DNA of 64,000 nucleotides, from NCBI RefSeq assembly GCF_009914755.1, contig NC_060934.1. One strand, written 5' to 3'. The notes under the pieces are model-generated. The model did not search any database, was not told where the DNA came from, and saw only the letters and a program-made list of their open reading frames with translations. The translations under genes were made by a program, and so were the position numbers. The stretch is from the human T2T-CHM13v2.0 reference genome, Homo sapiens. The stretch's first letter is position 1; every line of letters begins with the position of its first letter. Positions 61,978 to 63,734 of this stretch are shown piece by piece.

Positions 61978-62450
61978 CGTACAACGGAATACTATTCAGC
62001 AATAAAATGGAACAGACTATTGATACAACAACTTGGATGAATCTCAGGCATTATGCTAAGTGAAAGAAGCAGTCTCAAAAGATTATTTACTGTATGATTA
62101 TTTTCACTTGACATTCGCTAGAAGACAAAACTATAATGATGAAAACCAGATCGGTAGCTGTCTGGGGTTGGAGTTGGGGGAGCAAAGAAAATTTAGATCA
62201 CAGGAGTAGGGCAGCTCCAGGATTGATGTAGGGACTCCCTAACATAGCCAGAGACATGGGGTCTTTCTAATTTTTCACCTCATCATCCTCAGCAAGTGGC
62301 TGGTCTGCTTCATCCTCTACTGAAAATCTGTTCCCATTAAGCAATAATTCCCCTATTTGCTGCTTCCCCAAGTCCCTGGTAACCACTGTTGTGCTTCCTG
62401 TCTGTATGAATTTACCTATTCTAGGTACCTCATACATGTGAAATCATGCA

Positions 62451-63126
62451 GAGTGTGGTGCTGTGACACAGAGGAGATGGCTTCACTTCATAACCTAACA
62501 CTTTCTGAAAAAGTGCTGACAAATCATCCCAGCTGGACAAAGTTTAATTTCCTAGATATGTCTCTAGATGACATTATAATCTATAAAAAGTTAGAAGAGA
62601 TAAACGCTGAAAAAGAATAAAAGAACCATAGTAAAAAGGATTCACCTTCAAGACAGCAATCAAATGCTCATGGACATCACCAGCAGAGAGGATACCCAAG
62701 ATTCAGAAGCAACTCTGAGGAAGGAAATTATGATTAAAAAAAAAAAAAAAACCATCCCAAGAAACTTCTGGATTCAAGTCTGGACGGCACCCTTTAAATG
62801 GGCAGCCTTTAACTGATCAGGGTCTCATTCTGTTGCCCAGGCTGGAATGCAGTGGTGCAATCATGGCTCGCTGCCCCCTCGACCTCCCGGGCTCAAGTAA
62901 TCCTCCCACCTCAGCCTCCTAAGTAGCTGGGACTACAGGCATATGCCACCATGCCCTGCTAATTTTTTTTTTCTTTTCTGTAGAGATGAGGTCTCACTAT
63001 GTTGCCCAGGCTGGGAAAGCATCCTTCTATTGCTCATACTTTTGAAACTTTTGAGACTATCACTACAGCCAAACTCACTAGAAAAAAAAAAAATTACCTT
63101 GCAGTGAAGAAATGTATTTAAAAAAA
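62451..63126 (+). pseudogene. LUZP4P1: Processed pseudogene of LUZP4 (CT28/HOM-TES-85), probably the annotated LUZP4P1
   Basis: ATG 62477: [108 protein letters not shown] matches the recalled LUZP4 N-terminus (LTLSEKVPPNHPSRKKVNFLDMSLDDIIIYKELEG...KPSGFKSGQHPLNGQPLIEQ); intronless, in-frame stops at 62618 and 62735, short A tail, TSD gtg(a/g)aatcatgca at 62438-62450 and 63130-63142. Confidence 0.88.
62821..63013 (-). mobile_element. Tail-less antisense AluJ segment inside the LUZP4 retrocopy (putative exonized Alu)
   Basis: begins ggtctc exactly after the position of the gagacAG acceptor, ends caggctg before the GT of ctg|gtc; no poly(T), no TSD. Confidence 0.85.
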
Positions 63127-63734
63127 TAAGTGGAATCATGCAAAATTTGTCCCTTTGTGTCTGGCTTATTTCACTCAGCATAATGTCCTCAAGATTCATC
63201 CATGTTGTATCATGTGTCAGAATTCTATTCCTTATTAGGACTGAAGAACATTCGATACATGTAGATCACATTTTGCTTACCCATTGATCTATCAATGGAT
63301 GCTCATGTTGTTTCCATCTTTTGGTTATTGTGAATAATGCTGCTATGAACATGAGGTTATAAATATCTGTTTGAGTCCCTGCCTTCAATATTTTTGCGTA
63401 TATGCCCAGGAGTAGAGTTGTTGAATCCTATGGTGATTCTATATTTAATTTTTTGACAAACCACCATACCATTTTCCATGGCGGCTGCACCATTTTGCCT
63501 TTGCACCAGCAATGCACAAGGGTTCCAATTTCTCCACCTTGCCAATCTTTGTTGTTTTCTGTTTTGTTTTTTTTTTTGACAATAGACATCCCAATGGGTA
63601 TGAAGTGATGTCTCATTGTGGTTTTGATTTGCATTTCCCTAATGATTAATGACATTGAGCATCATTTCATTGTGCTTATTAACCATTTGTAGATCTTCTT
63701 TAGAGAAATATCTATTTAAGTCCTTTGCTCATTT

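What the first reader, a model, noticed from the sequence alone, without database searches (positions are those of the whole stretch)
62451..63142. LUZP4 retrocopy appears to be a fossil of an Alu-exonized, alternatively terminated LUZP4 mRNA
Seen: within one TSD pair, LUZP4-like coding sequence ends at ...GQPLTDQ (CAG, 62820). It joins directly to an antisense AluJ starting at GGTCTC with no poly(T) tail and no TSD. The Alu ends at CAGGCTG (63013) and is followed by ~105 nt of non-Alu sequence and the A tail. Established: antisense Alus are exonized through the AG of (T)n-GAGACAG|, and CAGGCTG|GTC is a cryptic donor-like site in the Alu; LUZP4 is a testis/cancer mRNA-export adaptor whose repetitive C-terminal region is absent here. 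Inference: the retrotransposed RNA was an isoform with the N-terminal exons, a 193-nt Alu cassette exon and an alternative last exon, expressed in the primate germline.
Basis: partly seen in the sequence, partly recalled or inferred. Interest (0 to 1): 0.8.

Follow-up and report, generated by a model that had tools for sequence, protein, structure and literature searches.

The report
Retrocopy of an Alu-terminated LUZP4 transcript
This dead chr10 copy of the X-linked gene LUZP4 was made from an old messenger RNA that ended early in an exon created by an Alu repeat, a tidy but ordinary example of a pseudogene preserving an alternative transcript.

Summary

- **What it is.** Window 62450-63129 is a processed retrocopy (LUZP4P1) flanked by a 13-nt target-site duplication inside an old L1.
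- **Parent exons.** Its first 370 nt are exons 1, 2 and 3 of X-linked LUZP4, joined exactly at the parent's GT/AG borders. Position 62820 is the last base of exon 3.
- **Alu and tail.** The antisense Alu and the about 105-nt tail match one contiguous stretch of LUZP4 intron 3, at 87.8% identity. This stretch lies 1,118 nt downstream of exon 3 and starts right after the AG that follows the Alu's T tract. It ends 11-15 nt past an AATAAA.
- **The correction.** The source RNA was exons 1-3 plus a single Alu-initiated alternative last exon. It was not a 193-nt Alu cassette exon plus a separate last exon. The Alu stops where it does because the parental Alu is 5'-truncated and has its own target-site duplication. 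No cryptic donor is involved.
- **Copy number.** This is the only LUZP4 retrocopy found in the assembly.
- **Standing.** The age, roughly 20-60 My, and present-day use of the exon are inferred, not shown. It is a new instance of known phenomena, of moderate to low interest.

The parts
62438..62450 (+). Upstream copy of the retrocopy's target-site duplication (GTGAAATCATGCA), in host L1 sequence. The last A is ambiguous with the first base of the retrocopy.
   Evidence: The overlap of left and right flanks on 4 of 5 paralogous L1 copies is 13 nt.
62451..62567 (+). LUZP4 exon 1-derived segment: about 26 nt of 5' UTR, with the ATG at 62477-62479.
   Evidence: It matches G000:C23:113698325-113698442. 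The parent exon ends CTCTAG|gtatgt. K2P distance is 0.21.
62568..62690 (+). LUZP4 exon 2-derived segment. It carries a TAA stop and two gaps of 5 and 4 nt relative to the parent.
   Evidence: The parent reads aatacag|ACGAC ... GGAGAG|gtaaag, at C23:113710584-113710715.
62691..62820 (+). LUZP4 exon 3-derived segment. It contains an A run that is 11 nt longer than in the parent (62735-62752).
   Evidence: The parent reads tcaaag|GCTAC ... GAGCAG|gtagat, at C23:113711892-113712010.
62821..63014 (+). Antisense, 5'-truncated Alu forming the first part of the alternative terminal exon. It starts at the base after the parental AG 3' splice site.
   Evidence: The parent is L002 1504-1698, preceded by ttttttgagacag|. 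An Rfam 7SL/SRP match lies on the minus strand.
63015..63026 (+). Copy of the downstream target-site duplication of the parental Alu (GAAAGCATCCTT), carried along in the transcript.
   Evidence: parent L002 1462-1473 and 1699-1710, identical at 11 of 12 positions..
63015..63119 (+). Unique, non-Alu part of the same terminal exon, colinear with the Alu in the parent intron.
   Evidence: only 2 places genome-wide, itself and C23:113713323-113713425..
63103..63108 (+). AGTGAA, aligned to the parent's AATAAA polyadenylation hexamer. It has either decayed here or was a variant hexamer in the ancestor.
   Evidence: Alignment. The parent hexamer is at L002 1781-1786. Homology ends 11-15 nt downstream of it.
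63120..63129 (+). Remnant of the poly(A) tail (A7, then TAA). The last 4 nt may instead belong to a 17-nt TSD.
63130..63142 (+). Downstream copy of the retrocopy's target-site duplication (GTGGAATCATGCA). Host L1 sequence resumes here.

Best explanation
LUZP4P1 is an L1-mediated processed pseudogene. It was reverse-transcribed from a LUZP4 mRNA made of exons 1, 2 and 3 spliced to a single alternative last exon inside intron 3.

That exon exists because a 5'-truncated Alu inserted antisense into intron 3:
- The Alu's T tract serves as the polypyrimidine tract.
- The AG directly after the T tract serves as the 3' splice site.
- The exon runs through the Alu into unique intron sequence and ends at a poly(A) site about 11-15 nt after an AATAAA.

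The mRNA was made in the germline or early embryo of a primate ancestor, roughly 20-60 My ago. It was inserted into an L1 within what is now a NEBL intron and has decayed since.

Shown here: the anatomy, the parental source and the exact junctions. Inferred: splicing as the process that joined the parts, the date, and any present-day use of the exon.
For: 1. Three intron losses sit at exact parental GT/AG borders.

2. The fourth junction, 62820|62821, joins the annotated-type donor of exon 3 (GAGCAG|gtagat) to the base after ttttttgagacag|, 1,118 nt downstream on the same strand.

3. The Alu plus tail is colinear with the parent over 303 alignment columns, 266 of them identical (87.8%). By BLAST it is 88% identical, against 82-86% for the 39 other full-length Alu hits listed.

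4. Among 10 aligned Alus, only the retrocopy and the parent stop at the same truncation point. They also share 7 derived columns.

5. The parental Alu has its own 12-nt TSD. The retrocopy carries only the downstream copy and lacks the T tract, as expected if the upstream part was spliced out as intron.

6. Homology with the parent ends 11-15 nt after the parent's AATAAA and is followed by an A run.

7. A 13-nt TSD is verified on 4 of 5 paralogous L1 copies.

8. Alu-derived terminal exons that are polyadenylated within or downstream of the Alu are an established mechanism (PMC4666398, passages read).
Against: - No RNA evidence was available, so the isoform is inferred from DNA only.
- The junction has a 3-nt microhomology: CAG ends exon 3 and CAG also precedes the Alu exon. 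A reverse-transcriptase jump within an unspliced, intronically polyadenylated RNA cannot be formally excluded.
- The hexamer in the retrocopy reads AGTGAA, so the ancestral signal is uncertain.
- The A tail is very short (7-10 nt).
- Divergence is uneven: K2P is 0.21 for exon 1 against 0.09-0.11 for the other segments.
- Within the Alu the parent has 14 private differences against 3 for the retrocopy. That asymmetry is probably an artefact, because the 8 comparison Alus were chosen for likeness to the retrocopy.
Confidence: 0.92

Rival explanations
1. The source mRNA had a 193-nt internal Alu cassette exon, with an AG acceptor and a cryptic donor at the Alu's internal GCTG|GT site, spliced to a separate alternative last exon.
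For: The acceptor half is correct. Complete Alu copies do continue with GT-like sequence at that point: 7 of the 8 other Alus read GGTCT and one reads GGCCT.
Against: In the parent the Alu and the tail are directly adjacent, with no intron between them. The parental Alu is truncated exactly there, so the GT does not exist in the parent. The next 12 nt are that Alu's own TSD.
Confidence: 0.02
2. The RNA was an unspliced-intron-3, intronically polyadenylated LUZP4 transcript. The 1,118 nt between exon 3 and the Alu were lost by template jumping of the L1 reverse transcriptase at the CAG microhomology, or by a later genomic deletion, and not by splicing.
For: A 3-nt CAG microhomology sits at the junction. 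Retrocopies with internal deletions are known (recalled, not checked here).
Against: Both break points coincide to the base with a functional-type donor, the one used by the canonical mRNA, and with an AG preceded by a long T tract. A random jump or deletion would have to hit both. The other three junctions in the same copy are clean splices.
Confidence: 0.04
3. It is a chimeric retrocopy made by template switching between unrelated RNAs, or an independent Alu insertion into a LUZP4 retrocopy followed by rearrangement.
For: The Alu in the window lacks its own T tract and TSD, which on its own could suggest a rearrangement.
Against: The Alu and the tail both come from LUZP4 intron 3, on the same strand and in the same order. 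The truncation point and 7 derived columns are shared with the parental Alu.
Confidence: 0.01

Closest known systems
Processed pseudogenes as 'fossils' of alternative transcripts (Shemesh et al. 2006 PNAS, seen only as a reference in PMC5470649; the paper itself is not held)
   Same: A retrocopy preserves the exon structure of a non-canonical splice or termination isoform of its parent gene.
   Different: I found nothing specific to LUZP4 in print. Here the alternative part is an Alu-initiated terminal exon. The parental exon's AG, T tract and AATAAA are still intact in the human gene.
Alu exonisation creating new terminal exons and poly(A) sites (Tajnik et al. 2015, PMC4666398, passages read)
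   Same: An antisense Alu supplies the U tract and 3' splice site. The transcript is then polyadenylated within or downstream of the Alu, in competition with the genuine last exon.
   Different: That paper focuses on intergenic Alus downstream of genes, repressed by hnRNP C. Here the Alu is intronic and truncates the coding region. Repression by hnRNP C was not tested.
TAF8s, a short isoform from an intronic poly(A) site at the edge of an Alu-family element (PMC12871804, abstract read)
   Same: An Alu insertion in an intron leads to an alternatively terminated mRNA. The mRNA encodes a truncated protein that keeps one partner-binding region and loses the nuclear-localisation signal.
   Different: TAF8s is shown to be expressed and translated and is human-specific. 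The LUZP4 short isoform is inferred only from a much older retrocopy, and it uses an Alu 3' splice site rather than an Alu-edge poly(A) signal.
3'UTR-embedded Alus as facilitators of processed-pseudogene formation (PMC5199112, passages read)
   Same: The retrocopied mRNA carried an antisense Alu in its 3' part. That paper reports a higher share of genes with processed pseudogenes when 3'UTR Alus are antisense or mixed.
   Different: That is a statistical association only. Nothing here shows that the Alu helped retrotransposition of this RNA.

Membership tests
L1-mediated processed pseudogene (retrocopy) | Introns removed exactly at the parent's exon borders | tested here: met
   Three canonical junctions plus the exon 3-Alu exon junction all fall at GT/AG in the parent.
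L1-mediated processed pseudogene (retrocopy) | Target-site duplication flanking the insert | tested here: met
   A 13-nt TSD, identical at 12 of 13 positions. The flanks overlap by 13 nt on 4 of 5 uninterrupted L1 paralogues.
L1-mediated processed pseudogene (retrocopy) | 3' poly(A) tail at the transcript's poly(A) site | tested here: met
   An A7(TAA) run follows the point where homology to the parent ends, 11-15 nt after the parent's AATAAA. The tail is short.
Alu exonisation | An antisense Alu lies in an intron of the source gene, with the exon starting after the AG that follows the T tract | tested here: met
   Parent L002 1478-1503 reads T-rich tract + gagacag|, followed by the exon.
Alu exonisation | The exon is present in mature RNA | not testable with these tools
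   Inferred only from the retrocopy. No RNA-seq, EST or chrX annotation could be reached.
Internal (cassette) Alu exon with an Alu-borne 5' splice site | A donor at the 3' end of the Alu part and an intron between the Alu and the next exon | tested here: not met
   The Alu and the tail are contiguous in the parent, and the parental Alu is truncated at that point.
Alternative last exon / intronic polyadenylation isoform | A poly(A) signal and cleavage site upstream of the canonical last exon, plus a stop codon in the new exon | tested here: met
   AATAAA lies at L002 1781-1786, with canonical exon 4 at L002 3172. The present-day human sequence gives 114 + 81 = 195 codons, with the stop inside the exon.
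Chimeric retrogene by template switching between different RNAs | The parts derive from different loci or RNAs | tested here: not met
   All parts map to one 15-kb stretch of C23, on the same strand and in the same order.

The most novel reading that the evidence does not exclude
The Alu-terminated short LUZP4 isoform is not just a past accident. Its AG, T tract and AATAAA are still intact in the human gene. It may still be made in testis and LUZP4-positive tumours as a 195-residue protein. That protein would keep the Uap56-binding motif (aa 22-40, within the Uap56-binding region aa 1-119). It would lack the RS-H region that holds the nuclear-localisation signal and the C-terminal Nxf1-binding and leucine-zipper part (PMC4344508). 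It could then act as a modulator or decoy of TREX assembly, much as proposed for TAF8s. In addition, its antisense Alu may explain why this isoform gave the only LUZP4 retrocopy in the genome while the canonical mRNA gave none.
Probability: 0.2. Interest if true: 0.5.

Novelty: new member of a known kind. Interest (0 to 1): 0.3.

Why it matters
The retrocopy gives DNA-level proof that LUZP4 produced an Alu-initiated, prematurely terminated mRNA in heritable cells of a primate ancestor. It also points to a precise exon that is still intact, at G000:C23:113713129 to about 113713425, which can be looked for in testis and tumour long-read data.

LUZP4 is a cancer-testis mRNA-export adaptor. A short form that keeps only the Uap56-binding end would be of some functional interest. 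As a phenomenon, however, it combines two well-described processes, Alu-derived terminal exons and retrocopies of alternative isoforms. It would not surprise a specialist.

Tried and rejected
- **Papers.** Shemesh et al. 2006 could not be read. Four searches found nothing on a LUZP4 Alu exon, short isoform or the pseudogene's origin. LUZP4 + Alu gave 4 unrelated papers. LUZP4P1 gave 1 GWAS paper. HOM-TES-85 gave 18 papers, 12 listed, none about isoforms by title or abstract. LUZP4 + isoform + intronic polyadenylation returned no listed paper that holds LUZP4. Supplements were not searched, so Alu-exon or intronic poly(A) catalogues may still list the exon.
- **Branch lengths.** I tried to use the 8 other Alus as an outgroup to compare the two branches. 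I rejected the result, parent 14 against retrocopy 3 private changes, because the comparison copies had been picked by similarity to the retrocopy.
- **First translations.** started one base off the ATG, and started at an upstream out-of-frame ATG in the parent. Both were redone.
- **Rfam.** The microRNA and lncRNA matches (mir-3135, mir-1268, RFPL3-AS1_2) are all below gathering score and lie in Alu sequence. I treat them as Alu-derived look-alikes.
- **Other primates.** No other primate genome is held, so presence or absence across species could not be tested.

Full report
**What is in the window.** The stretch 62438-63142 reads, in order:
- a 13-nt direct repeat;
- about 26 nt of 5' UTR and an ATG at 62477;
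- LUZP4-like coding sequence up to 62820;
- an antisense Alu fragment at 62821-63014;
- about 105 nt of non-Alu sequence at 63015-63119;
- A7 followed by TAA;
- the second copy of the 13-nt repeat.

The repeat (GTGAAATCATGCA / GTGGAATCATGCA, 12 of 13 identical) was found. Both flanks belong to an old L1. I searched the genome with the left flank and fetched 5 uninterrupted L1 paralogues. In 4 of them (L018, L020, L021, L022) the last 13 nt of the left flank and the first 13 nt of the right flank align to the same 13 nt. The fifth (L019) aligned raggedly. That is a real target-site duplication. It may extend to 17 nt (14 of 17), in which case the A tail is only 7 nt long. An Rfam 7SL/SRP match on the minus strand confirms that the Alu is antisense to LUZP4.

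**The parent.** The window's own assembly is searchable. The coding part (62451-62820) has only four places in the genome: itself and three blocks on contig C23, which is chrX. Pairwise alignment with the flanking parental sequence shows each block is an exon with canonical borders:
- exon 1 ends CTCTAG|gtatgt;
- exon 2 runs from aatacag|ACGAC to GGAGAG|gtaaag;
- exon 3 runs from tcaaag|GCTAC to GAGCAG|gtagat.

Canonical exon 4 begins 2,786 nt further on, at ttttcag|GAGAAG (L002 3172), and carries the rest of the 313-codon frame.

**Where the Alu and the tail come from.** A search with the whole element gave one hit that stood out. C23:113713126-113713425 covers the Alu and the tail together at 88% identity (E = 1.8e-102). 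The other 39 full-length Alu hits listed were 82-86% identical and covered the Alu only. The tail alone has exactly two places in the genome, itself and this one.

The place lies in LUZP4 intron 3, on the same strand, 1,118 nt downstream of exon 3. The parental sequence reads: T-rich tract, gagacag|GGTCTC..., Alu body...GGGTGG|GAAAGTATCCTT..., unique sequence, AATAAA, gaaatgtatt. The retrocopy is colinear with it from the base after the AG to 11-15 nt past the AATAAA. Of 303 alignment columns, 266 are identical. After that point the retrocopy has its A run.

**Why the Alu ends where it does.** The parental Alu is a 5'-truncated insertion with its own target-site duplication. GAAAGCATCCTT lies upstream of the T tract and GAAAGTATCCTT lies directly after the truncated end. 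I aligned the two copies with the 8 best other Alu hits. Only the retrocopy and the parent stop at this point, and all 8 others continue into the left monomer. The two also share 7 derived columns.

The retrocopy carries the downstream duplicate (63015-63026). It lacks the T tract and the upstream duplicate, as expected if those were removed as intron. There is thus no donor site and no further intron.

**Mechanism.**
- Shown: four exact junctions, the parental origin of every part, the poly(A) site position and the target-site duplication.
- Inferred: the fourth junction was made by the spliceosome, using the Alu's T tract and AG.

The inference is by far the simplest reading, because both break points coincide to the base with splice signals. 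A 3-nt CAG microhomology leaves a small chance of a reverse-transcriptase jump or a later deletion. The mechanism is established for other genes. Antisense Alus provide U tracts bound by U2AF65 (and repressed by hnRNP C) together with a 3' splice site. They can form terminal exons that are polyadenylated within or downstream of the Alu (PMC4666398, passages read).

**What the isoform would encode.** Spliced from the present-day human sequence, the frame runs 114 codons through exons 1-3. It continues for 81 codons in the Alu and tail and stops inside the terminal exon, giving 195 codons. According to Viphakone et al. 2015 (PMC4344508, passages read):
- the Uap56-binding motif is aa 22-40, and aa 1-119 bind Uap56 strongly;
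- the RS-H region, aa 156-236, holds the nuclear-localisation signal;
- Nxf1 binds mainly the C-terminal part.

The short form would therefore keep Uap56 binding and lose the rest. Whether it is made today was not testable. The retrocopy itself is dead, with stops, two small gaps and an 11-nt A-run expansion.

**Age.** The K2P distance between retrocopy and parent is 0.122 over 649 aligned sites. It falls to 0.091 without CpG-context transitions. By segment it is 0.21 for exon 1 and 0.09-0.11 for the other four. With recalled neutral rates of 1.0-2.2e-9 per site per year this gives roughly 20-60 My. This is an inference. No other primate genome was available.

**Copy number.** Neither exons 1-3, nor the tail, nor 1,003 nt starting at canonical exon 4 has any further copy. 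In this assembly, the only LUZP4 retrocopy these three queries detect comes from the Alu-terminated isoform. One paper reports that genes with antisense or mixed 3'UTR Alus more often have processed pseudogenes (PMC5199112, passages read). That is compatible with this finding but proves nothing here.

**Comparison and verdict.** The finding combines two described phenomena. One is retrocopies as fossils of alternative isoforms (Shemesh et al. 2006, seen only as a citation). The other is Alu-derived alternative transcript ends. A recent analogue with functional follow-up is TAF8s (abstract read). I found no paper describing this LUZP4 exon or the origin of LUZP4P1 (supplements not searched). 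It is a new member of a known kind, of modest interest.

Noticed in passing
window 62646-62714, minus strand: The hub table lists this 69-nt exon of a non-selected NEBL transcript. It lies entirely inside the retrocopy, antisense to it, and has canonical signals: ...cctcag| at 62715-62716 and |gtgaat at 62644-62645. Its polypyrimidine tract is the reverse complement of the A run at 62735-62752, which is 11 nt longer in the retrocopy than in LUZP4. In the frame read here the exon contains a stop. The pseudogene seems to have donated an antisense exon to its host gene.
   Followed up: partly
window 62451-62567 against G000:C23:113698325-113698442: The exon 1-derived segment is about twice as diverged from the parent (K2P 0.21) as the other four segments (0.09-0.11). 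Only 6 of its 21 differences are CpG-context transitions. The cause may be fast evolution of the parental 5' end or decay of a former CpG-rich region in the copy. This is unresolved.
   Followed up: no
L002 1478-1503 and 1648-1664 (LUZP4 intron 3, chrX): The T tract in front of the parental Alu exon is interrupted by A's (TTTTATTTATTTATTTTTT). The internal linker tract has 11 uninterrupted T's. According to the hnRNP C/U2AF65 competition model (PMC4666398), interruptions of the first tract could relieve repression of the exon. This was not tested.
   Followed up: no
window 62834-62961: Rfam matches to mir-3135 and mir-1268 fall below their gathering scores and lie inside the Alu. These microRNA families look Alu-derived, and the matches are not evidence of microRNA genes here.
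   Followed up: no
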